39,350 bases of DNA from a virus (Duplodnaviria; Heunggongvirae; Uroviricota; Caudoviricetes): positions 1 through 39,350 of IMG/VR virus record IMGVR_UViG_2698536590_000009; one strand, written 5' to 3'. Below are positions 1-39,350 of this stretch, in pieces. The position numbers were made by a program, and so were the translations under genes. The notes below the pieces were generated by a model. The model was not told the origin of the DNA. It saw nothing but the letters and a program-made list of their open reading frames with translations, and did not search any database. How positions within the stretch are numbered: position 1 is the stretch's first letter; the number at the start of each line of letters is the position of its first letter.

Positions 1-672
1 TCATTTGCTTTCAACTGAAATTGATATGTCATCATCAAAATCCTGTTCAGGGAAAATATCCGCACCTTCAAATTGCAGAGGAGCTAAAATAATTCGCTCA
101 CTCCACGCGCTTACTCTGGCAAATCCGTCCTGATTCACCATCCCTACCGGATACGACACCTCACAGCGAATTTCTTTATTTGCCGCATCATAATAATACA
201 GAACGATATAAGTTCGGGTGCTATCTATCGGCGTGATCTCAGCTTTGCCTGAATGTAAGGTATCTGCTTGGAACATATCGAATGTACCCGGATTGTTGTG
301 AACAATCGAGCGAGTTGCCTCTCCCTTTGCATTTTTGGTTTTAGGCAATCCATCAGGACGCCCGGTATGTCCGTCACCTGAGGTAATAATCAGATTAACC
401 CCTTTGCTTGAATTAACGACCATTTCCATGCGATTGACTACTTCAGAAGACCAGCCGTTACCCTTACCAATCAGAATACGGCGAAGCGCGGCAACCATCT
501 CACTCCAAAAGCGGAATCCAGCATCCACTTTAGGGTGGAGCTTACTGGATTTGCGTCGCTCGTATAAAGCAGACATTAACGCATCGCGAATATCATTTTC
601 TGTAAAGCCCAGTTTACTAAGTACAAAATCCGAATCAATTCCTGTATGCAGAACACAATGAGGCATATTCAT
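1..672 (-). CDS. Hypothetical protein, accessory gene distal to the tail-fibre module (function unknown)
   Basis: Track ORF 1..690 (GTG start); more likely ATG at 672 preceded by GGGAGAA Shine-Dalgarno; stop TGA at 1-3; no recognisable motif. Confidence 0.45.
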   Translation of the reverse strand: MNMPHCVLHTGIDSDFVLSKLGFTENDIRDALMSALYERRKSSKLHPKVDAGFRFWSEMVAALRRILIGKGNGWSSEVVNRMEMVVNSSKGVNLIITSGDGHTGRPDGLPKTKNAKGEATRSIVHNNPGTFDMFQADTLHSGKAEITPIDSTRTYIVLYYYDAANKEIRCEVSYPVGMVNQDGFARVSAWSERIILAPLQFEGADIFPEQDFDDDISISVESK

Positions 673-694
673 GAAAGTTTCTCCCATCACTTTT

Positions 695-737
695 ACTTCT
701 TGATTTTATCATAAAATTTATGAAAAAATCAAGAAGT
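695..737. promoter_or_regulatory. 13-bp perfect inverted repeat (ACTTCTTGATTTT / AAAATCAAGAAGT, 17-bp spacer) immediately upstream of the 1..672 gene; candidate operator
   Basis: Read directly from sequence; AT-rich, not followed by a U-run on either strand so unlikely to be an intrinsic terminator. Confidence 0.3.
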
Positions 738-908
738 GACACCCTACAAGCGATTGTAGACTTTCTCTTGTTTTCTTACGTTCCTGCTCTCCAATTGCGC
801 AATTGATTTCTTCAACAATGTGAGAGTACACATCATAAACCTCCGACTGCAGCCAGCAACCGGAGCCTCATTCTTCAGATACCAGAACAACTCACTGCGA
901 CCTATTCG

Positions 909-1265
909 TTACTCAACATTAAATGCTCGTATCGCATCTAAATCCTCCAGAGTGTCTAACGCTTCTTTCTTCTCTCGCTGACGGCGATAAATCTCGTCAT
1001 TGCGTTCAACAACAGCCTGCGCCATTGCTGCTGCCAGTTCTTCCGGTTCCGGCATTGACAGCTTCACCTGCTGGTTTTCCGCATCGCCCCATACCATGGT
1101 TTTTCGCGCTGTGTCAGACTTTGATGCCATTACTGCCGGATAAAGACGAGCCATTGAGTCGGGGCCAGCATTCCAGGTGCGACCGTTCCATTCGAACGTG
1201 AACGGCTGCGCTTCCTGTTCTGTGCTCCACACCTCGATTTCCCGCTTTCTGGCATCCTTTCCCAC
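909..1265 (-). CDS. Hypothetical protein (118 codons, GTG start, no obvious SD); possibly the remnant of a longer degraded gene
   Basis: Track ORF; a second minus-strand ORF 1130..1507 in another frame overlaps it, hinting at a frameshifted ancestral gene. Confidence 0.3.
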   Translation of the reverse strand: MGKDARKREIEVWSTEQEAQPFTFEWNGRTWNAGPDSMARLYPAVMASKSDTARKTMVWGDAENQQVKLSMPEPEELAAAMAQAVVERNDEIYRRQREKKEALDTLEDLDAIRAFNVE

Positions 1266-1665
1266 GGCGATAAGTTCTGACGTGACGGTGAATGCAGGGC
1301 TGTCCAGTGGCGCTTTTGTTTTCGTCTCGTCCGTGACGGTTTTGACAGCCTTTGGCGTGGCTGCCAGTTCTTCGCTGTCGTTGTCTGTATCACTACAGAG
1401 TTGCGCCAGACCTTTTTTGTCGTGGAAGCATTGCTTCCCTTCAGATCATCAACTATCCATTGCGCCTCGTCCCTGTGCTGTTTCGCGCTCTGCTGCGCCT
1501 GCACCACAGTTTCCTGTCACCACATCGGCAACTGTGCGCATCACACCTCTGAGGTGTTTACCCGGGATTTCAGAGTTATGTGGCATCCGTACATGGGGAT
1601 GCCTGCGCCATCAATCAGTGCACCTGATATCACTACAGACATAGTTTTTCTCGCGATAAATTAAA

Positions 1666-3767: not shown

Positions 3768-4390
3768 TTTTGAATCACCGTTGTTGCATAGGAATAAATA
3801 AAAGGGAGTTTTACATATTTCTGGTCAATGGCATCTTTCAGAAAATAGCCTATACCATCACCATATTCTGGTATCTGAATAGAAAAAACACTGTCCGATA
3901 CAGTCACGCTCACATCAAAAGTGTGCTGCAACGGCGGGTCTATTCCGTTTTTCCCATGAATGAACCGTGCCACACGGCGCTTTAACCAGTCAATGCAGAA
4001 ATGCGAACCGTCAGCCTTATAAAAATTCCAAGTTAATATTCGCTTGAAATAATCATCCGGAACATACGATGCCTGCCCCGGAACATAATTCCGCATTGCC
4101 GCATAAGGGATTGTATTGTATTCAATGGTATCGTATGCGCCGCGTGCAATAGCCTCCTCGGAAACCTGTAGTAAAGGCCTTTCAACGCCATAAATCCCGA
4201 GAGCAATCCAGTCCAGCAATTGCCCGGTTATTGATTCCGATGTCCAGCATGGCAATGCCAGATTGTTGAGTGAATCGAGGTATTCCTGAGCAATTTCATT
4301 GTATGCATCAAAGAACGCAACAACATTCGGATCATCTCTGTACTGCACAAACGGATAAGCAGGGAGAATTTTTTCAGTCAGATATTGCAT
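3764..4390 (-). CDS. Tail/baseplate protein (Mu gp48 / P2 gpI-like)
   Basis: Position between J-like gene and tail fibre; track ORF extends to 4498 but overlap with J favours ATG at 4390; exact start uncertain (no clear SD). Confidence 0.55.
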   Translation of the reverse strand: MQYLTEKILPAYPFVQYRDDPNVVAFFDAYNEIAQEYLDSLNNLALPCWTSESITGQLLDWIALGIYGVERPLLQVSEEAIARGAYDTIEYNTIPYAAMRNYVPGQASYVPDDYFKRILTWNFYKADGSHFCIDWLKRRVARFIHGKNGIDPPLQHTFDVSVTVSDSVFSIQIPEYGDGIGYFLKDAIDQKYVKLPFIYSYATTVIQK

Positions 4391-5600
4391 ACTTGTTAAC
4401 TTGAACCTGTGATACCACCGTCGAAAAATAGGAATAGGTATCGCCATAAACCAGGCTTGTGTCTTTTGCCGGAGGAACAATATGGCCATTAATGCCAATG
4501 CTCACACTGATTGTTGAGATCAACGTCGCATCAACCAACAATCTGACGGAACTGGTAAAAATATCCTGGATTCGCAGCAGATTTATCGGGTGTCCGACTT
4601 CAATAGAATTGATGTAATCAGCAACGTTTTGCTGCACAGCCATAGCAATACCCGCCGGATCAACATAATCATCAGATACAGTGTTCCAGGTGATTAGCAC
4701 CATGACGTTTTGTGATGACGGGATAACGAACGGTACCTGATAAACATCTGGCGAAACGGTTATTGAAACCGTGCGTTTTTCCACTGCCGCACCAGATGGA
4801 TTGCTAACATCGTTGGTCAGTTTCGAAATATCCGGTACAGATTTGTAAATAGCATAAGCCACATCATACGGATCACCGCCACCAACAACCGCAACCCATT
4901 TCCCCAGCGACGACTGCCGGAAAGAAATCAGGTTTTCTCGCACACCGCTTACTGATTTGAGCATCGCTTTAAAGCAATCCGGTGTTCCCTGCACACCAAA
5001 CATGCCGGACTCCATGACTTCGGCGCGGTAAGATGCCCACGTTTGCGCCTCCTGACCTGGCATCCCTGCGGTAAGGTTCGTGCATTTTACAGGCTGATCT
5101 TTGGGTACCGATGTAATGACCTGCGTTACGGTTCCTTCCGGTACAGCCCATGAGCCTGACGTTGTGGCCACACAGTAGACTGGCTCAGTCTGCCCGCTTT
5201 CCGGCACCACCGTATCGCGGGAAACTGCATACTGGTAGTTGCCGTCACCGACAACAAATCCTTTAGGGATACCAAACCCCGGCAACGCCTCAAACACCAC
5301 GTATACCGCCGTATTTGTACTTAATCCCTTCTGTGCTCCATAAATGTTTCCGAGTTGCATCAGTAACGGAATATTTGCGCCGTATGGGCTTACGGAGTTA
5401 ATAAGGTCCACCCGCGCCTGGTCTATTAATGCCAGCGCCCCGACAGCCGTGCTGGCAAGGTCTGTAATAAGCCCCGCCGGAAGGTTGGCTGTATATCCAG
5501 GTACTTTTTCGGCAACTCTGGTGATAAGATTCGCGAGCAAATCATTGGGTGGCGTAGGCTGCGCCCCCGCACTGGTCATAGTAATTGGTATTTCTGACAT
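4374..5600 (-). CDS. Baseplate J-like protein (Mu gp47 / P2 gpJ family)
   Basis: 408 aa, conserved position downstream of W-like gene; GGAG SD before ATG at 5600. Confidence 0.75.
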   Translation of the reverse strand: MSEIPITMTSAGAQPTPPNDLLANLITRVAEKVPGYTANLPAGLITDLASTAVGALALIDQARVDLINSVSPYGANIPLLMQLGNIYGAQKGLSTNTAVYVVFEALPGFGIPKGFVVGDGNYQYAVSRDTVVPESGQTEPVYCVATTSGSWAVPEGTVTQVITSVPKDQPVKCTNLTAGMPGQEAQTWASYRAEVMESGMFGVQGTPDCFKAMLKSVSGVRENLISFRQSSLGKWVAVVGGGDPYDVAYAIYKSVPDISKLTNDVSNPSGAAVEKRTVSITVSPDVYQVPFVIPSSQNVMVLITWNTVSDDYVDPAGIAMAVQQNVADYINSIEVGHPINLLRIQDIFTSSVRLLVDATLISTISVSIGINGHIVPPAKDTSLVYGDTYSYFSTVVSQVQVNKYAISD

Positions 5601-5612
5601 ATTTACTCCATT

Positions 5613-5638
5613 AAAAAACCCGCTTTCGCGGGTTTTTT
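5613..5638 (-). terminator. Intrinsic terminator-like hairpin (AACCCGC-TTTC-GCGGGTT flanked by A6/T6; bidirectional) between accessory gene and baseplate J
   Basis: Seen in sequence: perfect GC-rich stem with U-run on both strands, 2 nt after stop of 5641..6801. Confidence 0.5.
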
Positions 5639-5640
5639 AC

Positions 5641-6801
5641 TTATTCAACCTCTTCTAAACTGCTCACTCTGGACCCTCGGCGGAAATTATCATCATTTTT
5701 AACATACTCATATGAATCCAGAATCAAACCAGATATGCGAAGTATATCTTCCGGATTAGTTATATGTATCCTTTTACCATCCGTATCAAGTCGAGCTCGT
5801 CTTATTTCATTCAACTGAACTTCACTAAGCGAAATAGGTAATGTTATAAATGAAGATTTTTTATCATAAAATCTTAACAGCCATCTATTAGTTTTACCAT
5901 TCAATAGTACACCAAAATATGACTCAGTATCTTTATATTCTATATTATCTTCTGTTTGTATGATTTGTTTTACCCTTTCAAATAGTTCCAATTCTTTGGC
6001 TGTGGTTATTATGTTGGGGTTTTCTTCATCAACAATGGCGTTATTAACTTGTGTATCCGTTGCATCATTTTCTTTAGTTTGCTCTACCGGTTGTGTAGAT
6101 AGCCCGGAAACCACCATTGCGCTAACAGCGCGCTCAACGGCCTGTTTAACTAATGGAGTCACGAACTCAAGAAATCTCTGATTAAGTTGTCTCTCAATAT
6201 TTGAACGACTAGCAACATATCGAACAAACTCCAGATCAACTTCACGAAGACTAGAACTGATTGTTTTAGTAAATGAATTCAAATAAACACTTTCTTCAGC
6301 CAGTGTCCGTAAAGCCTCTGGTTTGAATTTATCATAACGAAAACGAAATAATTGTGTAATATCGGAGTGAGTTAGAGAATCCATTCTTATTTTTAAAAAC
6401 GGCGTTGAATCCATTATGTTTTTTTGTTTCAAATCCGTAAAAAAACGCCATTCAACACCATTTGTAATGGCTGATATAGTAACTTCCGGTGTTGAATTAA
6501 AATATCTTGATAGCTGTGGGCAGTGATTATCAATTTGTTCTGAAAACGATTTCGCCTCAATGAACATCACAGGAACATCATGACAAAATAAAGCGTAATC
6601 AACCCGTTCATTAGCCTTAACCCCGGGGAAGTCAGCACTATACTCAGCTTTGACTTTTCTTGGATCATACGGAGTAAAACCAAGAATATCTAGTAATGGC
6701 ATAATGAGTGCTTGTTTTGTCGTTTCTTCAGTTGTACAAAACACCCCCATTTTTGCAACATGCTCTGTGTGTATTTTTAACTTATTTGCAAAATTTTCCA
6801 T
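5641..6801 (-). CDS. Restriction-endonuclease-fold protein: N-terminal type I restriction enzyme HsdR-N-like PD-(D/E)xK domain plus uncharacterised C-terminal domain; accessory (moron) gene, candidate anti-phage defence
   Basis: N-terminal motif pattern ...ALIMPLLDILGF...RVDYALF...VMFIEAKS...ITNGVEWRFF matches HsdR_N-type nuclease signature (recollection); AT-rich relative to flanking tail genes; own GGAGGAG SD (start likely ATG 6801, track start 6816), own terminator. Confidence 0.6.
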   Translation of the reverse strand: MENFANKLKIHTEHVAKMGVFCTTEETTKQALIMPLLDILGFTPYDPRKVKAEYSADFPGVKANERVDYALFCHDVPVMFIEAKSFSEQIDNHCPQLSRYFNSTPEVTISAITNGVEWRFFTDLKQKNIMDSTPFLKIRMDSLTHSDITQLFRFRYDKFKPEALRTLAEESVYLNSFTKTISSSLREVDLEFVRYVASRSNIERQLNQRFLEFVTPLVKQAVERAVSAMVVSGLSTQPVEQTKENDATDTQVNNAIVDEENPNIITTAKELELFERVKQIIQTEDNIEYKDTESYFGVLLNGKTNRWLLRFYDKKSSFITLPISLSEVQLNEIRRARLDTDGKRIHITNPEDILRISGLILDSYEYVKNDDNFRRGSRVSSLEEVE

Positions 6802-6829
6802 GCTTGTCTCCTCCATGGTAACAATATGT

Positions 6830-6860
6830 ATTTTGCAAATCCGAAATAATATATGTCAAT
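6830..6860 (-). promoter_or_regulatory. Candidate sigma70 promoter for the accessory nuclease gene (perfect -35 TTGACA at 6860..6855; weak -10 about 17-19 bp downstream)
   Basis: Sequence inspection only; -10 element poor, so low confidence. Confidence 0.25.
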
Positions 6861-6949
6861 ATGCTCCAGCTTAGAAAATTACTCGCCCCCTAAAATATCT
6901 CTCTACAGCACTCCAAACCAAGGTAAAAGTTTTATCATAAAACTGTGAT

Positions 6950-7297
6950 TCATACCGGCACCTGCGTCCGGTAACTGGTCCCATTAAAAAACACAACATC
7001 GATGTTATAGGTGGGGTTATCTGCTCCATCTACCTTTGAAATTGCCAGTGATGCAAAATACCCAGCAAACTGTTGCTGAACCATGTTCACATAGTAGTCT
7101 GGGTAAATCTGCTGCACGATGCACTGCTGTGCAGGAATACCGTAATTCGCGTAAAACGGCGACTCCCCCAATCCCAGCTTTAACGTCTGAATGAGCGTCG
7201 TCAGCCAGCCGTAGGAGAAATCACCGTTGGCGTCAGATTCTACTGCAACCCATTTTTTGTTGCCGTTCGCGTCGGTGACGCGGCCCCATGTTCTCAT
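6950..7297 (-). CDS. Baseplate wedge protein (gpW / T4 gp25-like, Mu GP46 family)
   Basis: 115 aa; LGLGESPFYANYG segment resembles the GE(R/S)P..P.(F/Y)G signature of gp25/W-family proteins; position upstream of J. Confidence 0.65.
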   Translation of the reverse strand: MRTWGRVTDANGNKKWVAVESDANGDFSYGWLTTLIQTLKLGLGESPFYANYGIPAQQCIVQQIYPDYYVNMVQQQFAGYFASLAISKVDGADNPTYNIDVVFFNGTSYRTQVPV

Positions 7298-7425
7298 CGT
7301 GCCCCCATCACTTTAACTAACTCTGTCAGTACTGGTGAAAAGGCAAATGCTAAAGCTACGAGTGCAGCGGTGTAATACATGCGTCGTAAGGTATTGCTTT
7401 TTGCCACTAATTTTAAGGCTTTCAC
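7294..7425 (-). CDS. Possible small hydrophobic peptide (43 aa from GTG 7425 with GGAGGAG SD), stop overlapping the W start (ATGA)
   Basis: Track lists a 67-codon TTG-initiated ORF 7294..7497 without SD; shorter GTG-initiated version has good SD; one predicted TM segment; could be non-coding. Confidence 0.25.
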   Translation of the reverse strand: MKALKLVAKSNTLRRMYYTAALVALAFAFSPVLTELVKVMGAR

Positions 7426-7511
7426 AATCCAGTCTCCTCCGCTAAAATTAATCACGGAAGACCTCCAAACATACGTAATCATCCCTTGCGTATTCAAGGT
7501 GAGAAACAGAA

Positions 7512-20092: not shown

Positions 20093-20906
20093 GTTTGCCC
20101 TTCTCCGTTAAAAATTCGTCGGGTAGTTTCTGAGGGGCGTAGATCGGCAGTGCATCGCAACTGCAATAAACCTCCTCCCCAGCAGCAGTGATTTCGTCAT
20201 AAAAACCATATACGGGCTTAATCAGCCCCTGCTCCAGCGCCCACGAATTGCGGAGGAGATAAATTTTCTCGTCGCGCTCTTTGTGGTCCTGTCGGTATTT
20301 GTAGCCCGGACGCCGCCAGTTAGAATGCCAGCGCAGAGCAATCGCTCCACTCTGAACAGCCAGCAGATACTTAACGTTGCTTGCCAGCTTATGCCCCTGG
20401 TCAATTGCCACCCGGCGACTGATAAAATCCATATCCTTCACGGACTTATGAAAACCGGACTTCACTTCCCAGCGATCAATTTCGCTCACCCCGTCAGGCG
20501 GAATGGACGTAACCCACCCCTGAAAACGCTGTATGGTTTTCTCGATGGCCTGTTCGCGGTTGAGTTTTATCAGGTTGGCACTGGCGAAAATTCGCCTGTC
20601 GAGTTCCTTGCGAAACTCAGGTTTCAGTTTTTCAACAGTGACTTTTTTAGGGCCGTCAGGAGGCTGCTCCCGTAATGCCCCGCCGTCGATGACAAGACGG
20701 CTGTAGATGGCGGTGAGATGTTTTCTGGCTACGGTATCATCAGGGGTTTCTCGCTGAGCGGCTACACGGAGTTTCCGGCACCATTCGAGCAATGATTTTT
20801 CGCTATCCCACCCGTGATTTACGTAGTAGTTAACGGCATCCGTCAGAACCTCATATAGCGTCCTGATCCGTTTCTTCTTCCTCACCGCCCGGCTGGAAAT
20901 TGCCAT
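20073..20906 (-). CDS. Minor head morphogenesis protein (Mu gpF-like)
   Basis: Position immediately after portal; ATG at 20906 with AGGAG SD (track ORF extends to 21044 inside portal gene). Confidence 0.5.
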   Translation of the reverse strand: MAISSRAVRKKKRIRTLYEVLTDAVNYYVNHGWDSEKSLLEWCRKLRVAAQRETPDDTVARKHLTAIYSRLVIDGGALREQPPDGPKKVTVEKLKPEFRKELDRRIFASANLIKLNREQAIEKTIQRFQGWVTSIPPDGVSEIDRWEVKSGFHKSVKDMDFISRRVAIDQGHKLASNVKYLLAVQSGAIALRWHSNWRRPGYKYRQDHKERDEKIYLLRNSWALEQGLIKPVYGFYDEITAAGEEVYCSCDALPIYAPQKLPDEFLTEKGKREFNRA

Positions 20907-22287
20907 CAGGCGTCTCCTGCTTCGGTGGTTCATAATTCGCCAGCGCGTCCACATCAATGATGAGTGGAGCTTCGCCATAGGTTTGCGTGGCATTAACAAG
21001 GCTTGCCAGCCATTCAGTGACGGCGGCACGGTTTTCAGGATCAACCTGTGGCGACACGGCAGAGAAAAGTGCTATCGCCTGTTGAATCACTTTACTGTCG
21101 CTTTCCCGGCGTTTGTCCGGCGACTCCTCCACCAGCTCCTGCCATGTCGCGGTAAATTCACGTCGCCACTGGTAAAACGTGGTTTTATAGTCATCAGTTA
21201 TGATGTCCGGGTAATCATTTTTCAGCGACTGATAAAATTCCTCGTTCCAGGCGATGTACTGCACCAGGCGTTCGAAATAATCCATCACAGGTTCAATCTG
21301 CTGGCGTACACCATCGATATACTGGCTGATAGCTTTCGAATCCTCAGTTCCTTCACCGAAACCATTCGAGAAAGCCTCCTCCTTGATGAGAATCGCGGGA
21401 ACATCGCTACCTGATGCAATATCGGAAATAATGTTGTCGCGGGCGGCATTTAGCGCGCCATCGATGTTTTGTAAATTCAGCGAGGTAACGTCCTCATCCT
21501 TCCCGATACTAAGCACACCTTTATTTTTTGCCTCTTTAACATTTTCCCTTTTTCGTCCCGTGGCGGCAGCCATGATCCCGTCAAGTTTCGAACCATACTG
21601 CACAACTTTAGCCACCAGTACGCCTGCCTTCTGGCTGACGAGATCATTCGCCTCCATCGTATTGATATAGGATTTCAGGGAATAAAGAACGCGCTGAAAC
21701 ACGCTTCGCCCGGTGAATCCGAACGATGAACTCTGAAACTCCAGATAAATCGGTGTGCCATTGAAAATTTTCAGTGTGCGTGACGGATGCCAGTCTTTTC
21801 CGCCAATCTTCAGCTTTTTATTGGCTTCCTGGAAAAACGGGCTGTTTGGGTTCTGGTCAGTCACCATCGAACCAGAAGCGTTCAACGGGTCCCACGCGTT
21901 GATATACACATCATCTTCTGTCAGTCCGAATGTCGGAAGCGGCTCACGACATGGAACACTGTCGGTGCCCACGCCGATCGCTGCGGCACCGTAGCAACGA
22001 GACAGAAAAAACAGATTTTTAATCTTCTCGTTAACCTTCATACGTTCCCATACCTCCTGGAAACGCCGCACAACCCGCTCGTCAGGGTCTGTCTCCACGT
22101 TGTACTGACGCGGCTTACACATCGCCATAAGTATGGGTTTTTCGACAAGTTTTCCGCCCAGAGGATGGAATTGCCACAGCTGCTTACACAATTCATAGCC
22201 AATGTCGGTTCCCGGCTGAATTTCTTCAGCCTCAAGAATATGCATCAGTGCTGAACCGAGGCCGCCAGTAATCTCGATCTCTGCCAT
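20851..22287 (-). CDS. Portal protein
   Basis: About 478 aa, acidic C-terminus, directly downstream of terminase large subunit; ATG 22287 with AGGA SD. Confidence 0.7.
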   Translation of the reverse strand: MAEIEITGGLGSALMHILEAEEIQPGTDIGYELCKQLWQFHPLGGKLVEKPILMAMCKPRQYNVETDPDERVVRRFQEVWERMKVNEKIKNLFFLSRCYGAAAIGVGTDSVPCREPLPTFGLTEDDVYINAWDPLNASGSMVTDQNPNSPFFQEANKKLKIGGKDWHPSRTLKIFNGTPIYLEFQSSSFGFTGRSVFQRVLYSLKSYINTMEANDLVSQKAGVLVAKVVQYGSKLDGIMAAATGRKRENVKEAKNKGVLSIGKDEDVTSLNLQNIDGALNAARDNIISDIASGSDVPAILIKEEAFSNGFGEGTEDSKAISQYIDGVRQQIEPVMDYFERLVQYIAWNEEFYQSLKNDYPDIITDDYKTTFYQWRREFTATWQELVEESPDKRRESDSKVIQQAIALFSAVSPQVDPENRAAVTEWLASLVNATQTYGEAPLIIDVDALANYEPPKQETPDGNFQPGGEEEETDQDAI

Positions 22288-22305
22288 CAAAAATATCCTG
22301 ATTTT

Positions 22306-28239: not shown

Positions 28240-28440
28240 ATATAGAGCAGGCCTCCGTAACCACAATAATGACACTGATACTGATAACAGCCCTTCATTA
28301 TGATTAAACGGATGCCAGCAATGACCCGCAAGACAGCGGGTAACACCCCTGTGAACAGAAACTTGCTGCCTTTCGGGTCGAGAGTAATATTACCGATAAT
28401 TTATATGACATCAAAAACTAATTAGTTTTCATATTTAAAC

Positions 28441-28460
28441 ATATGTATAAATATGTATCA
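28441..28460. repeat. Motif M copy 2 (ATATGTATAAATATGTATCA)
   Basis: See copy 1. Confidence 0.4.
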
Positions 28461-28761
28461 GACGCATACAATTTATGTTATTTCATCCAGACTTCTGATT
28501 TCTCACAGGAAATTGCGAAAAAAAAACAACATAAAAATGAACAAATTGGGAGTACGCTAACTCCGTTGTCGCAATAAATCACAGTAAGCTCTTCAGAAAT
28601 AACAGTTCACAAGACTTACATCAACAGTAGTTTTTGTAATGATTAATGTTAACTGTAGCGTTGAAAAGAAAAGTTTTGACGAAATATGGTGAACTAACAG
28701 AGCCTAACGAATAGCCCTATTACGCCGAGCTAATAGCGCTGCCAGCTAAACTTGCATGGAA

Positions 28762-28838
28762 TGGTCCGCCACCGAGGACTCGAACCTCGCACAATCAACT
28801 TAGAAGGTTGATGCTCTATCCCGATGAGCTAGTGGCGG
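28762..28838 (-). tRNA. tRNA-Arg (anticodon UCU), phage-encoded (argN-like position in lambdoid late region)
   Basis: Manual cloverleaf with encoded CCA; anticodon loop CUUCUAA; rare-codon AGA/AGG decoder typical of lambdoid phage tRNA islands. Confidence 0.8.
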
Positions 28839-28840
28839 AA

Positions 28841-28916
28841 TGGTGGCCCTTGCTGGATTTGAACCAGCGACCTGGCGATTATGAGTCGCTCGCTCTCACC
28901 ACTGAGCTAAAGGGCC
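28841..28916 (-). tRNA. tRNA with CAU anticodon, closely resembling E. coli tRNA-Ile2 (ileX-type, lysidine-dependent); ileZ-like phage tRNA
   Basis: Manual cloverleaf with encoded CCA; strong resemblance to remembered ileX sequence; Met identity cannot be excluded from sequence alone. Confidence 0.8.
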
Positions 28917-29056
28917 GATTGAAAAATATTGACTGAATCAGTTTAGCGCTGTAATCCACCCAACACAACCGTTTAAATCTTGTATGTCAGCTACAATCAA
29001 GTAAAAATATCTGAACAACAAGCAGAAAAGTCTATATCCCGGTTACTCATAATGTT

Positions 29057-29770
29057 TTAGCGCACTTTGACTATATTAATTTCAAATTCATCTGTATGTG
29101 CGCTATTAAGTATAACGAAATTCGTACTACCGTGCCTGTACGATTTTGATAAAACCAAGCGATCACCATAGCGAGCAAGAACGTAATACCAAACGCTCTC
29201 ATAGTGAAGTGTCTGATACTCCTTCTTAAACTGAGGTTTGTACCATCCAGCAATAAGCGAAAACAACCAGAAATAGAGCATGAATCCGGCCATAACACAC
29301 TCAATCTTGTGATGCCGAATAAAAGACACTTCAGAAATACATTTAACGTAAATAAACTTCCTGCCCGTTCTGACGAACATGGTAATTATTAATGCCACAA
29401 TAGCGCATAAAACCAATGCATCTGGTACAAAGTGCTGATGAATTACCGAAAACTCCAGAGCCGGAGGAACAAAAAGCAACAATATCGCAAGAAAAAGCCT
29501 GACAGCACTCAAATCCTTCATATTATTTTTTTGTTTGATCCCCAGAAAGAAGACAATACCGATCCCCCATCCAGCCAAGAATATAACGATAACTGTGACA
29601 GCATAAAACAGGCTTCTGGCCACATCATCAACACCGGCCCCGACAACCCACCATGGAAAGCCATAGTAAAAGGAAGTACCCCAGCCATAGAAATAAGCAC
29701 TTCCCCACCCAAGACACCCCATGTAAGCAACAAAAAGTGAAGAATTCCTGAGCAGAGTACTGTCACTCAT
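29057..29770 (-). CDS. Polytopic inner-membrane protein of unknown function (accessory/moron gene between Q terminator and tRNA island)
   Basis: About 237 aa, 4-5 hydrophobic helices then a short soluble C-terminus; strongly AT-rich; ATG 29770 with GAGG SD. Confidence 0.55.
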   Translation of the reverse strand: MSDSTLLRNSSLFVAYMGCLGWGSAYFYGWGTSFYYGFPWWVVGAGVDDVARSLFYAVTVIVIFLAGWGIGIVFFLGIKQKNNMKDLSAVRLFLAILLLFVPPALEFSVIHQHFVPDALVLCAIVALIITMFVRTGRKFIYVKCISEVSFIRHHKIECVMAGFMLYFWLFSLIAGWYKPQFKKEYQTLHYESVWYYVLARYGDRLVLSKSYRHGSTNFVILNSAHTDEFEINIVKVR

Positions 29771-30109
29771 AATCATCCTCTAACAACTTAACAACATTAA
29801 CTCGCTTTACATAACAAAGAAAATTCCATGTAGTCAAGAGGGTTCAGGAAAGGAGAAACTAAAATTGCATAGCCATCATAAAGTTTAACGTACCAACCTG
29901 CTTTTTCAGGTATAAAAAAACCAACCTCAAGGAAAGGCTGGCATAAGAAAAGTAAATAATGATTCCACTAAAACTTCGTCGCAGGAGGAATCCTGTGCCG
30001 CTTAACATACATAAAATTTAGACAACTAACAATCACAATATAAAATATTTAAGATTTCGTTATCAAAATACCAGTCAGTAGAGCGCCAGCTCTCCCGTAG
30101 ATGGTTAAA

Positions 30110-30138
30110 CATAACAACAAAACCCGCTCAATGGCGGG
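30110..30138 (-). terminator. Candidate tR'-type terminator downstream of Q (CCCGC-TCAATG-GCGGG + U-rich tract)
   Basis: Hairpin about 86 nt after Q stop, position analogous to lambda tR'. Confidence 0.45.
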
Positions 30139-30223
30139 TTCTGGTGAAGTTCATGCGATTAATTCGCCACGCGATACAGCTTTGCGAAGCGTATCGGAAT
30201 TGAAGCAGTTTATGCGTAAGAAA
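30139..30223 (-). promoter_or_regulatory. Probable late promoter / Q-utilisation region (PR'-like)
   Basis: Positional inference only (between Q stop and terminator); no confident -35/-10 assignment. Confidence 0.25.
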
Positions 30224-30766
30224 TCAAGCCATTTTTTGAGCAAATGATTCTCGCATGGGAATGTATAGCGCACACTCAGCAACAGCCAACCAATTAGCAA
30301 TTCGCTTTTCGCATGTGCTAAAACAACACTCTGGATACTGTTCGTTTAGTAACCCGGCCATCCTTCTCTTACTCATTCCTCGCCCCTCATACCGTTGTCG
30401 GAGGATGCTAATCAATCCCGGATGTTCTGCCAGCACCTCACTTATAACCCGATCAATACATAACGCCTCTGCATCAGTACAATGCGCCAGCCAGCTCTTT
30501 TGCTTACCATTGATCATCTCTCGCAAAAACGCTTCCAGCTCAGGTTTCTCTATTCCCGCTTTTTTCATTCTGCGCAGGGCTTCATTGATGGCTGTTTTCG
30601 TCAATTTTTTGGATGCCAACAACTGATTGAACATATTTCCTGACCTGCCACCACCAATATATGACCAGCGCCCCCACATACGTAGTTTTCCCTGAATCCA
30701 GACACTTTCCAGCGTAGTGAGACGAAGGTGTTCTCCGCTTTTTCCTGTATTCGTTGGGTAAATCAT
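30224..30766 (-). CDS. Late-gene antitermination protein Q-like
   Basis: 180 aa; position immediately upstream of late promoter/terminator; RMWGRW segment resembles the RWGAW segment of Q family proteins (recollection). Confidence 0.5.
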   Translation of the reverse strand: MIYPTNTGKSGEHLRLTTLESVWIQGKLRMWGRWSYIGGGRSGNMFNQLLASKKLTKTAINEALRRMKKAGIEKPELEAFLREMINGKQKSWLAHCTDAEALCIDRVISEVLAEHPGLISILRQRYEGRGMSKRRMAGLLNEQYPECCFSTCEKRIANWLAVAECALYIPMRESFAQKMA

Positions 30767-37566: not shown

Positions 37567-38031
37567 ATGAGAAGAAAACGCGAAGAAATCGCATCGCCAG
37601 AAGCTACGCAGCGTCTACGCGGAATCTGGGATGCAAAAAAAAGAGAGCTCAAATTGACTCAGGAGCTTGCTGCCGAGCTAATGGGCTTTGAGACGCAATC
37701 TACGGTTAGCCACTATCTCAACGGAAAGGCTCCACTTAACACTGATGCGGCATTAAAATTCGCAGTATTGCTAAGAGTTAAGCCTGAAGACTTGAGGCCT
37801 GATTTAGCTGATCTGATGAATTACGTCCGTTCCTCTGGAACTTATGACGAAAGTTTCGAAGGCGAAGGGTGGCGGATGGTTAACAAGCAACAAGCTGATT
37901 TACTGGATCTTTTTGATATCCTCCCCGAATCAGAAAAAGCAAAACTAATCGAAAGGCTTAAAGGCCAGAATGAACTCTACAAAGAAGCGTTTGAAAATAT
38001 GCTGGCAGCTCAGAAACGCATAAAGAAATAG
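37567..38031 (+). CDS. Prophage repressor, HTH-XRE type without peptidase domain (DicA/RacR-like)
   Basis: HTH segment LTQELAAELMGFETQSTVSHYLNG; C-terminal LLDLFDILPESEKAKL resembles DicA. Confidence 0.65.
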   Translation: MRRKREEIASPEATQRLRGIWDAKKRELKLTQELAAELMGFETQSTVSHYLNGKAPLNTDAALKFAVLLRVKPEDLRPDLADLMNYVRSSGTYDESFEGEGWRMVNKQQADLLDLFDILPESEKAKLIERLKGQNELYKEAFENMLAAQKRIKK

Positions 38032-38053
38032 CCCCCACTACCTCGTAACTAAA

Positions 38054-38076
38054 CCGCCATCCCTGGCGGTTTTTTT
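38054..38076 (+). terminator. Rho-independent terminator after repressor gene (CCGCCA-TCCC-TGGCGG + T7)
   Basis: Seen in sequence. Confidence 0.6.
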
Positions 38077-38267
38077 GTCCCCTGCGCCCCCATCGCCTTA
38101 CTTTTTTATCAAAAAAAACACTAAAATTTTCATTAGGATAGTACATTTTTATCAACAAAATGCATATTTATGTTGATCATCAATATGAATATAACTAATA
38201 TTATTGCAGAAGCAGCACGGCGCTGTAGGTTTTAGTTCCGCCACCCGGCGTTAAGGGGAGAGATAAG

Positions 38268-38402
38268 ATGGTGCATTACGAAGTAGTTCAGTATTTGATG
38301 GATTGTTGCGGTATCACTTACAACCAGGCTGTGCAGGCTTTACGCAGCAACGACTGGGATCTCTGGCAGGCAGAAGCCTCTATCCGCAACAACAAAATGT
38401 GA
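38268..38402 (+). CDS. Small protein (44 aa), YdfB-like
   Basis: Manual ORF with AAGGGGAG SD; resemblance to Qin ydfB is from memory only. Confidence 0.4.
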   Translation: MVHYEVVQYLMDCCGITYNQAVQALRSNDWDLWQAEASIRNNKM

Positions 38403-38412
38403 GGTGCGAAAA

Positions 38413-38565
38413 ATGCAAAAAATCGACCTCGGCAATAACGAATCCCTGGGGTGCGGCGTGTTCCCCAACCAGGATGGAACGTTCACTGCCATGACTTATA
38501 CCAAAAGCAAGACATTCAAAACTGAAACGGGCGCACGTCGCTGGCTTGCCAGAAATACTTGCTAA
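38413..38565 (+). CDS. Small protein (50 aa), YdfC-like
   Basis: Manual ORF with GAGGTG SD, 10 nt after previous stop. Confidence 0.4.
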   Translation: MQKIDLGNNESLGCGVFPNQDGTFTAMTYTKSKTFKTETGARRWLARNTC

Positions 38566-38749
38566 TCCATTATTTGGATTAATTCAATATTCTCGCTGTA
38601 GGGGTATAGCAGAAACCACCAAAGCCCGGAGGTGGTGAAATAAAACCGGGCACAACACGAAGTCGCATTTCCGATATCCATAAAGAGTCGGTCTTGTCTG
38701 TTAAATTTAAATGGTGGGAGTGCGCCTCCGGTTGTGGATAACAACACTG

Positions 38750-38810
38750 CTGTGTGTAGTCTTGGCGGCATCAGTTTTTTCTTGAAGTTCGACTGATGTC
38801 CGCCCTTTTT
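38750..38810 (+). ncRNA. dicF: DicF-like small RNA candidate ending in intrinsic terminator (GGCGGCAUCAG...CUGAUGUCCGCC + U5)
   Basis: Terminator hairpin and flanking sequence resemble remembered E. coli DicF; location between ydfC-like ORF and DicB-position gene as in Qin. Confidence 0.45.
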
Positions 38811-38985
38811 AAAGTGAATTTTGTGATGCGGTGAATGCGGCTAAGCGCACGCGGCACAGTTAAAAGTCATGTTAGTCCTTATTGGTTTGGGTGGGAAAGC
38901 CGACTGTAATTGTTAACTGGTTGCAGTCACCTGGAGGCACTAGGCACCGCATCAACAAAGTTCATTTGTAAAAATGGAGATAATT

Positions 38986-39207
38986 ATGATTGCACATCAC
39001 TTCGGAACTGATGAAATACCACGTCAGTGTGTGACTCCTGGTGACTATATTCTTCATGAAGGCCGGACATATATTGCCTCGGCAAACAATATTAAAAAGC
39101 GAAAACTTTATATTCGTAACCTGACTACAAAAACATGCATTACTGACTGCATGATTAAAGTCTTCCTCGGTCGTGATGGTTTACCTGTAAAGGCGGAGTC
39201 ATGGTGA
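38986..39207 (+). CDS. Small protein at DicB position (possible cell-division inhibitor analogue)
   Basis: ATG 38986 with GGAGA SD (track start 38974); weak KRK-region resemblance to DicB only. Confidence 0.35.
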
Positions 39208-39350
39208 TGACTAAGAAAATAAAATGTGCTTACCACCTTTGCAATAAAGAAATTGAAGAAAGCAAAAGTATTAAAAGACCACTTCATTTCATGCGTGGAG
39301 TTATCCCAACGACGGAAATGAAAAAATATTGTAGTGAAAGTTGTGCCTAG
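39207..39350 (+). CDS. Small Cys-rich protein (47 aa), start overlapping previous stop (TGATGA)
   Basis: Manual ORF, C..C...C..C pattern; ends with TAG at window edge. Confidence 0.3.
   Translation: MTKKIKCAYHLCNKEIEESKSIKRPLHFMRGVIPTTEMKKYCSESCA

What the first reader, a model, noticed from the sequence alone, without database searches (positions are those of the whole stretch)
5600..6950. Autonomous HsdR-N-like nuclease gene inserted between baseplate genes W and J
A 386-391 aa protein whose N-terminus carries the PD-(D/E)xK pattern of the type I restriction HsdR N-terminal domain (D of RVDYALF, E-x-K of FIEAKS) sits between two conserved, normally adjacent baseplate genes. The segment is visibly AT-rich versus the flanking tail genes. 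It has its own GGAGGAG SD, a perfect TTGACA -35 element upstream and a strong hairpin terminator 2 nt past its stop. That is the signature of a horizontally acquired moron expressed from the lysogen, and single-gene nucleases in such positions are frequently anti-phage or abortive-infection factors. The C-terminal 190 residues match nothing I recognise.
Basis: partly seen in the sequence, partly recalled or inferred. Interest (0 to 1): 0.8.

Follow-up and report, generated by a model that had tools for sequence, protein, structure and literature searches.

The report
Prophage-borne stand-alone HsdR-type nuclease cassette
A self-contained, AT-rich promoter-gene-terminator cassette inserted in the baseplate genes of an E. 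coli Rac-type prophage encodes a small nuclease from a large, untested family that usually sits right behind prophage repressors, which makes it a good but unproven candidate for a new single-protein anti-phage defence.

Summary
Window 5609..6938 is a 1330-bp cassette with GC 0.355, the lowest of any 1330-bp stretch in the window. It carries a promoter, one gene (5641..6801, minus strand, 386 aa) and a strong terminator hairpin. It lies between baseplate J and a 115-aa baseplate-module gene.

The family is large: 3375 50%-identity clusters, PHROG 4225. Its usual place is directly downstream of, and co-oriented with, prophage repressors in Gram-negative and Gram-positive phages, the λ rexAB slot. 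Close relatives of this prophage always carry other cargo (Ant-type) at the baseplate site. In distant relatives the two baseplate genes overlap.

Best reading: a lysogen-expressed single-protein defence or exclusion nuclease (confidence 0.6). It is absent from PADLOC, and I found no functional paper. Interest is moderate.

The parts
5609..6938 (.). Inserted cargo cassette (moron), 1330 bp, GC 0.355
   Evidence: Homology to Rac-SA53 and vB_Apl-pPE4 (about 95%) stops at 5608 and resumes at 6939. It is the lowest-GC 1330-bp stretch of the window.
6830..6859 (-). Sigma-70-type promoter: TTGACA (6859..6854), 18 nt, CAAAAT (6835..6830)
   Evidence: Matches 10 of 12 consensus positions. The -35 and -10 are conserved in position in the L107 and L016 cassettes while the spacer has diverged. 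Activity was not tested.
6808..6814 (-). Shine-Dalgarno GGAGGAG, 6 nt upstream of the ATG at 6801
   Evidence: Read from the sequence. The Met it serves (M6 of the long ORF) is invariant in 61 homologues.
5641..6801 (-). Nuclease gene, 386 aa (the long ORF from the ATG at 6816 gives 391 aa). Residue numbers in this report count from 6816.
   Evidence: RefSeq WP_000426902.1. PHROG 4225 at 4.7e-149 over the full length.
6382..6735 (-). HsdR-type PD-(D/E)xK nuclease domain (aa 28-145). Catalytic residues: D73 (6598..6600), E87 (6556..6558), K89 (6550..6552), Q101 (6514..6516), Y105 (6502..6504).
   Evidence: Pfam HSDR_N and HSDR_N_2. The motifs are conserved. Foldseek top hits are HsdR fragment 3h1t, DrdV, BpuSI and EcoR124I HsdR.
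6097..6381 (-). Helical middle region (aa 146-240)
   Evidence: AF2 model with pLDDT mostly 78-94 and helices at 150-157, 166-191, 195-204 and 213-240. No Pfam match.
6022..6096 (-). Acidic, disordered, poorly conserved linker (aa 241-265)
   Evidence: pLDDT below 50 for aa 241-257. Mean pairwise identity 0.09-0.16 and median net charge -5 to -7.
5692..6021 (-). C-terminal alpha/beta domain with a double-wing (MotA-CTD/YjbR/YdhG-like) fold (aa 266-375). Conserved residues: T271, T272, E275, K295, D296, Y300, W312, R315, D357.
5612..5639 (-). Intrinsic terminator hairpin (12-bp stem, GAAA loop, A-run before and T-run after)
   Evidence: -17.4 kcal/mol, z -4.76, and 0 of 200 shuffles fold as well. 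It lies inside the cassette. The pattern scanner missed it because the stem absorbs the T-run.
4374..5600 (-). Flanking baseplate J gene (backbone)
   Evidence: PF04865 at 8.3e-8, phrog_6.
6950..7297 (-). Flanking 115-aa baseplate-module gene in the 'W' position (backbone)
   Evidence: phrog_7986 at 1.6e-64, no Pfam match. It overlaps V-like and J genes in distant relatives.

Best explanation
The cassette is a mobile, self-transcribed 'moron' that encodes a single-protein nuclease made in the lysogen. The nuclease probably protects the lysogen, and so the prophage, against superinfecting phages or other invading DNA.

Shown:
- An intact HsdR/RecB-type PD-(D/E)xK active site (D73, E87-x-K89, Q101xxxY105).
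- No motor, methyltransferase or partner gene.
- A modular build: a conserved nuclease, then a faster-evolving helical region, an acidic flexible linker and a double-wing C-terminal domain.
- Its own promoter and terminator.
- A family-wide preference for the slot immediately downstream of, and co-oriented with, prophage repressors. This is the position of rexAB in λ.

Inferred:
- The C-terminal domain supplies specificity. It would recognise a feature of foreign DNA (a modification or a structure) or a phage-made trigger.
- It thereby directs or unleashes the N-terminal nuclease to cut DNA.
- Self DNA is spared because it lacks the feature or trigger, not because it is methylated by a partner.
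- In this prophage the gene is also read through during late transcription, because a Q antiterminator is present.
For: - Nuclease identity and intactness.
- No other catalytic domain: Pfam on the whole protein and on the C-terminal 199 aa, and the AF2 model.
- Self-contained cassette.
- Mobility of one and the same gene:
  - the baseplate slot here;
  - the Q-to-lysis slot in Salmonella (87% identical protein) and in E. coli SW070917 (78% DNA identity);
  - 22 bp after a cI-like repressor in Citrobacter Rac-like prophages;
  - after the c repressor in Salmonella Mu-like prophages;
  - after the repressor in Klebsiella phage KpF5;
  - repressor-x-gene-integrase in pneumophage IPP25;
  - after HTH repressors in Bacillus and Clostridium prophages;
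  - beside HicAB in Porphyromonas phages.
- Repressor association in numbers: among 60 distinct upstream neighbours on viral contigs, 26 carry Peptidase_S24, 7 Peptidase_M78 and 21 HTH_3. 76 of 79 are co-oriented, mostly within 160 bp.
- Domain divergence: the nuclease domain is more conserved (mean pairwise identity 0.47) than the C-domain (0.26), as expected for a conserved effector plus a diversifying recognition module.
- The gene is kept intact at >=99% identity in 25 E. coli genomes.
- The baseplate site is a cargo hotspot with alternative cargo in relatives.
Against: - No experiment: no member of the family was found in PADLOC-DB 2.0.0 or in the searchable literature.
- Chromosomal copies sampled in Gilliamella, a Firmicute, Edwardsiella and an enterobacterial islet sit among housekeeping genes, not in recognisable defence islands.
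- The C-domain is not basic (median net charge 0 to -2), which weakens the DNA-reader idea. Its best structural neighbour (YdhG-like) is not a proven DNA binder.
- Promoter activity in the lysogen is unmeasured.
Confidence: 0.6

Rival explanations
1. Phage-own DNA function. The nuclease would serve the prophage's own life cycle, for example processing or recombination of phage DNA, host-DNA degradation after induction, or help with excision or replication, rather than defence.
For: In Rac-like prophages the gene lies between the repressor and the kil/recE/recT early-left genes, so a link with recombination functions is conceivable. In the window it is co-oriented with the late operon and would be read through by Q-modified polymerase (Q found). 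PHROG files it under 'DNA, RNA and nucleotide metabolism'.
Against: It is dispensable. Close relatives of this prophage lack it and carry Ant cargo instead. It moves as a lone gene between unrelated phage types and into chromosomal islets with no phage around. It has its own promoter and terminator. Its typical position is co-transcribed with the repressor, that is expressed when lytic functions are off.
Confidence: 0.15
2. Free-standing homing endonuclease. This would be a selfish nuclease with a catalytic domain, flexible linker and DNA-binding domain, like I-TevI. It would cut the empty baseplate junction in related phages and spread by recombinational repair.
For: It is inserted between conserved structural genes with its own promoter and terminator and is AT-rich. 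The two-module architecture has a disordered linker. The baseplate genes overlap directly in distant relatives.
Against: No empty target site exists among 88 E. coli genomes with this module; all carry unrelated cargo of at least 1 kb. Homologues at 66-87% identity sit at quite different sites, and most family members sit behind repressors, which is not the pattern of site-specific homing. The C-domain is not basic.
Confidence: 0.07
3. Inert remnant. The gene would be a truncated leftover of a type I or type IIG restriction gene with no present function.
For: RefSeq's name and the fact that only the N-terminal domain of HsdR is recognisable by sequence.
Against: It belongs to a family of 3375 50%-identity clusters with a constant length of 345-400 aa and a constant three-part architecture. 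Catalytic and C-domain residues are invariant across phyla. Both domains model with confidence. The gene is kept intact at >=99% identity in 25 genomes.
Confidence: 0.03

Closest known systems
Nuclease domain of type I restriction HsdR subunits (EcoR124I, EcoKI; Pfam HSDR_N/HSDR_N_2) and of type IIG/IIL enzymes (BpuSI, DrdV/MmeI class)
   Same: The same PD-(D/E)xK domain family, with D...ExK and the RecB-type QxxxY motif. These are the best structural neighbours.
   Different: No SF2 motor, no methyltransferase and no HsdM/HsdS partners. Here the domain is coupled to a helical region and a double-wing domain in a protein of 386 aa.
λ rexAB, BstA and other lysogen-expressed exclusion genes encoded next to the prophage repressor (from my own knowledge of λ and BTP1)
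   Same: The same genomic logic. Family members lie immediately downstream of, and co-oriented with, cI-type repressors, so they would be made in the lysogen.
   Different: No sequence or fold relationship, and a nuclease effector rather than an ion channel or KilA-N protein. In this window the gene is not in that slot but in a baseplate hotspot with its own promoter.
Type IV (modification-dependent) restriction enzymes such as Mrr and MspJI, and single-protein nuclease defences such as Shedu (SduA)
   Same: A stand-alone PD-(D/E)xK nuclease fused to a separate recognition or sensor domain, with no cognate methyltransferase.
   Different: The recognition domain is not an SRA, winged-helix or PUA/EVE reader but a double-wing fold. 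The domain order is the reverse of Shedu. There are no PADLOC hits to Shedu, Mrr or other models. Dependence on modification is untested.
Phage T4 MotA C-terminal 'double-wing' DNA-binding domain, and the YjbR/DUF419 and YdhG/DUF1801 folds
   Different: 7-14% identity and no Pfam match. The domain here is not basic, and ligand or DNA binding is unknown.
Morons of lambdoid phages (Hendrix and Juhala concept; from my own knowledge)
   Same: A promoter-gene-terminator unit of deviant base composition, inserted between genes that are adjacent in other phages.
   Different: In close relatives the site is never empty. It is a swap-in, swap-out cargo hotspot.
DefenseFinder 'FS_HsdR_like' (PICI-borne system of Fillol-Salom et al. 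2022; recalled from memory only)
   Same: By its name, a single HsdR-like protein carried on a mobile element with anti-phage activity.
   Different: Unknown. The paper is not held and no model was available, so I could not compare the sequences. If it is the same family, the novelty claim falls.

Membership tests
Type I restriction enzyme R subunit (HsdR) | N-terminal PD-(D/E)xK nuclease domain (HSDR_N) | tested here: met
   PF04313 at 5.6e-14 and PF13588 at 2.4e-9. D73, E87-x-K89 and QxxxY are conserved.
Type I restriction enzyme R subunit (HsdR) | SF2 ATP-dependent translocase (two RecA-like domains) and a C-terminal assembly domain; protein of about 800-1100 aa | tested here: not met
   The protein has 386 aa and no helicase Pfam hit. 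The NCBIfam HsdR equivalog scores 18.9 bits against a cut-off of 729. The model shows helices plus a small alpha/beta domain.
Type I restriction enzyme R subunit (HsdR) | Encoded with hsdM and hsdS | tested here: not met
   The neighbours are baseplate genes. No consistent methyltransferase or specificity partner appears in 12 other contexts.
Type IIG/IIL restriction-modification enzymes | HSDR_N-like nuclease fused to a gamma-class methyltransferase and a target-recognition domain | tested here: not met
   No methyltransferase domain. PADLOC REase_MTase_IIG matches only the nuclease part of a homologue.
Type IV modification-dependent restriction enzymes | Nuclease without a cognate methyltransferase | tested here: met
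   Single-gene cassette.
Type IV modification-dependent restriction enzymes | Cleavage requires modified DNA; a recognised modified-base reader domain | not testable with these tools
   The C-domain has a double-wing fold, which is not a known reader class. Biochemistry is needed.
Known anti-phage systems in PADLOC-DB 2.0.0 | HMM match to a system component | tested here: not met
   0 hits at E<=1 for the window protein. Homologues hit only generic nuclease or methyltransferase models weakly.
PHROG 4225 ('endonuclease') | Full-length HMM match | tested here: met
   4.7e-149, aa 6-375 against profile positions 1-357 of 357.
Moron (autonomous transcription unit in a phage operon) | Own promoter and terminator, and deviant composition | tested here: met
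   Promoter function itself was not assayed.
Moron (autonomous transcription unit in a phage operon) | Flanking genes adjacent in related phages | tested here: inconclusive
   Adjacent and overlapping in distant relatives. Never adjacent in 88 close E. coli relatives, which carry other cargo.
Free-standing homing endonuclease | Presence/absence polymorphism with an intact empty target site in close relatives; homologues at the same site | tested here: not met
   0 of 88 genomes has an empty site. Homologues occupy many unrelated sites.
DefenseFinder FS_HsdR_like | Sequence match to the validated PICI protein | not testable with these tools
   The paper is not held, the term is absent from the library and no model was available.

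The most novel reading that the evidence does not exclude
This protein would represent a widespread, so far unrecognised single-protein immune family, present in thousands of clusters across Proteobacteria, Firmicutes and Bacteroidota. It would be one of the commonest occupants of the 'rex slot' behind prophage repressors. It would work by a new coupling: a MotA-like double-wing domain recognises modified or otherwise phage-specific DNA (or a phage trigger) and licenses an HsdR-type nuclease, with an acidic linker acting as an autoinhibitory DNA mimic.
Probability: 0.3. Interest if true: 0.7.

Novelty: new variant of a known kind. Interest (0 to 1): 0.5.

Why it matters
If the prediction holds, a gene that databases mislabel as "type I restriction endonuclease" would become a defined defence family. 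It occurs in prophages of E. coli, Salmonella, Klebsiella, Citrobacter, Bacillus, Clostridium, Streptococcus and Porphyromonas.

The family has a clear positional signature, directly behind the prophage repressor. That signature could be used to mine other lysogen-expressed immunity genes.

It would also give a first function to a double-wing domain outside T4 MotA, and explain part of the phage resistance conferred by Rac-type prophages in cattle- and human-associated E. coli.

The baseplate W-like/J junction is shown to be a cargo hotspot that is always filled, which is useful for prophage annotation.

Tried and rejected
- **Type I R subunit (the RefSeq name):** rejected. There is no motor and no hsdM/S.
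- **Known defence system:** PADLOC was negative for the window protein and for three homologues.
- **Sequence search of solved structures:** only chance hits, both with the single sequence and with a 61-sequence profile.
- **Pfam on the C-terminal 199 aa and on the 115-aa 'W' protein at E<=10:** nothing meaningful.
- **Literature:** ten searches found no functional study. Terms tried were PF04313, HSDR_N, 'HsdR N-terminal domain', 'Lp2 protein 6', the RefSeq accession, COG4748 and FS_HsdR_like. One search was wasted on an ambiguous term. A C. jejuni comparative study only notes such a gene in a phage-resistant strain and leaves its role unclear. Whether COG4748 is this family rests on my memory only.
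- **Papers not held:** Fillol-Salom 2022 and Brenes & Laub 2025.
- **AFDB50 fold search:** unavailable.
- **Homing-endonuclease reading:** tested with an artificial empty-site query and rejected.
- **Terminator scanner:** it missed the hairpin because the stem absorbs the T-run. Folding confirmed the hairpin.
- **Conserved partner genes (antitoxin or methylase):** none was consistent across contexts. A Dam-like gene lies beside the Salmonella Mu-like copies only, and an RHH gene lies upstream in Paraclostridium only.
Full report
**What is there**

The window is a Rac-site prophage of E. coli. It is 100% identical to strain RM11911 and lies next to ompN and uspF. It is related to phage Rac-SA53.

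On the minus strand an ORF runs 5641..6816. The second ATG, at 6801, is the likely start, giving 386 aa:
- GGAGGAG lies 6 nt upstream of it.
- That Met is invariant in 61 homologues.
- RefSeq annotates 386 aa.

Homology to Rac-SA53 and to Actinobacillus phage vB_Apl-pPE4 (about 95%) stops at 5608 and resumes at 6939. The foreign segment is therefore 5609..6938, 1330 bp.
- Its GC is 0.355, against 0.49 in both flanks. It is the lowest of all 1330-bp stretches of the window, 3.5 sd below the mean.
- Inside it lies a TTGACA-18-CAAAAT promoter at 6859..6830.
- Also inside it, 2 nt after the stop codon, is a 12-bp hairpin with a T-run (-17.4 kcal/mol, z -4.8).
- The -35 and -10 hexamers keep their positions in two other cassettes whose proteins are 78-87% identical, while the spacer has diverged. 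This is a small phylogenetic footprint in favour of a real promoter.

**The protein**

The N-terminal domain:
- Pfam gives HSDR_N (5.6e-14) and HSDR_N_2 (2.4e-9) for aa 30-133 and nothing else.
- PHROG 4225 'endonuclease' matches over the full length (4.7e-149).
- In 31 diverse homologues (27-51% identical), D73, K89 and Y105 are invariant and E87 and Q101 nearly so. This is the D...ExK plus QxxxY signature of RecB/HsdR-type nucleases.
- An AlphaFold model built on a 61-sequence alignment has mean pLDDT 86.
- Its best PDB neighbours are an HsdR fragment (3h1t), DrdV, BpuSI and EcoR124I HsdR.

- a helical region (aa 146-240);
- an acidic, unconserved, disordered linker (aa 241-265);
- a compact alpha/beta domain (aa 266-375).

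**What it is not**

- It has no helicase motor, no methyltransferase and no hsdM/S neighbours. The database name 'type I restriction endonuclease' is wrong.
- It matches no PADLOC model.

**The site**

- The downstream gene is baseplate J (PF04865).
- The upstream 115-aa gene has no family assignment beyond phrog_7986. It is 'W' only by position.
- In distant relatives (Klebsiella Chronis, Yersinia vB_YenM_29.18) the V-like, 115-aa and J genes overlap by 4 bp. Adjacency is therefore the ancestral state.
- Among E. coli complete genomes, 88-91 carry this module. 25 carry the nuclease cassette at >=99% identity. The others listed carry Ant-type cargo on the opposite strand.
- An artificial 'empty site' query found no genome with the two genes adjacent.

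The junction is a cargo hotspot that is always filled.

**The family and where it lives**

The family is large:
- 3375 clusters at 50% identity reach E<=1e-3. Most of the best 150 are 345-400 aa long.
- At least 573 IMG/VR contigs encode a relative.

The same lone gene turns up in many places:
- 22 bp downstream of a cI-type repressor (HTH_3 + Peptidase_S24) in Citrobacter Rac-like prophages;
- behind the c repressor of Salmonella Mu-like prophages;
- behind the repressor of Klebsiella phage KpF5;
- in the order repressor-x-gene-integrase in pneumophage IPP25;
- behind HTH repressors in Bacillus and Clostridium prophages;
- beside HicAB in Porphyromonas phages;
- in the Q-to-lysis moron slot of Salmonella and E. 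coli lambdoid prophages;
- as a solitary islet among housekeeping genes.

On 80 viral loci the upstream neighbour is co-oriented in 76 of 79 cases, mostly within 160 bp. Of 60 distinct upstream proteins, 26 carry Peptidase_S24, 7 carry the ImmA-type Peptidase_M78 and 21 carry HTH_3. The canonical home of the family is thus the slot that holds rexAB in λ, transcribed with the repressor in the lysogen.

The nuclease domain is the most conserved part (mean pairwise identity 0.47 against 0.26 for the C-domain). That is the usual pattern of a conserved effector joined to a diversifying recognition module.

**Interpretation**

The best-supported reading (0.6) is a lysogen-expressed, single-protein defence or exclusion nuclease.
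- The nuclease chemistry and the genomic logic are shown.
- The role of the C-domain is inferred. It could read foreign DNA or sense a phage trigger.
- Whether the system acts by direct restriction or by abortive infection is not resolved.

Rival readings:
- A function in the phage's own DNA metabolism (0.15). Against it: the gene is dispensable, mobile and associated with repressors.
- A free-standing homing endonuclease (0.07). Against it: there are no empty sites and the insertion sites are many.
- An inert remnant (0.03). Against it: conservation across phyla.

**Novelty**

The kind, a prophage moron encoding a stand-alone nuclease, is familiar. The architecture (HsdR-type nuclease + helical region + double-wing domain) and its positional signature are not in the defence catalogue available here. 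No functional paper was found in ten searches.

One caveat from memory: DefenseFinder lists a PICI-borne 'FS_HsdR_like' system. I could not obtain the paper or a model, so identity with that system is not excluded.

I rate this a new variant of a known kind, of moderate interest, directly testable by a plaque assay with catalytic mutants.

Noticed in passing
window 28400-30200 (ORF 29057..29776, minus strand): A second AT-rich stretch (GC 0.38-0.41) lies immediately downstream of the Q antiterminator gene (30224..30766). It holds a 239-aa ORF with no Pfam match. This is the classic Q-to-lysis moron slot, and in other prophages it holds the closest homologues of the nuclease studied here.
   Followed up: partly
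window 37567..38031 (+) and 38032-39350: An HTH_3 repressor-like gene. The slot downstream of it is the canonical home of this nuclease family in other prophages, but here it holds only small ORFs.
   Followed up: partly
window 7312..7483: A second small variable segment lies between the 115-aa gene and the V-like baseplate gene (bppV). It is not homologous to the corresponding stretch of Rac-SA53 or pPE4, and distant relatives have no spacer there at all. A 67-aa ORF (7294..7497) lies in it.
   Followed up: no
L001 4208-6054 and L002 4208-5241 (Rac-SA53 and vB_Apl-pPE4, the same junction): The alternative cargo at the same hotspot, on the opposite strand, is two proteins of 182 and 154 aa with no Pfam or PADLOC match plus an AntA/AntB antirepressor. 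Several length variants exist among E. coli genomes.
   Followed up: partly
window about 20853-22289 (L004 35554-36990): RefSeq labels a 478-aa gene lying between the terminase and a DUF2213 gene, in the portal position, as 'anti-CBASS protein Acb1 family protein'. This is possibly a naming artefact.
   Followed up: no
window 1-1409 (L004 14702-16110) and just beyond the window's left end: At the prophage end next to the tail-fibre genes, RefSeq annotates a hypothetical protein, a DUF4376 protein and, outside the window, a 368-aa HTH-domain protein. This may be further cargo at the prophage-chromosome border.
   Followed up: no
protein P0163 (509 aa): One family representative carries an N-terminal TerD domain fused to the nuclease. 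This could be a real fusion or a gene-calling artefact.
   Followed up: no
L111/L112 (Paraclostridium sordellii): Here the family member follows an integrase and a 61-aa ribbon-helix-helix gene, and is followed by HNH and reverse-transcriptase genes. This is an integrative element rather than an obvious prophage.
   Followed up: no
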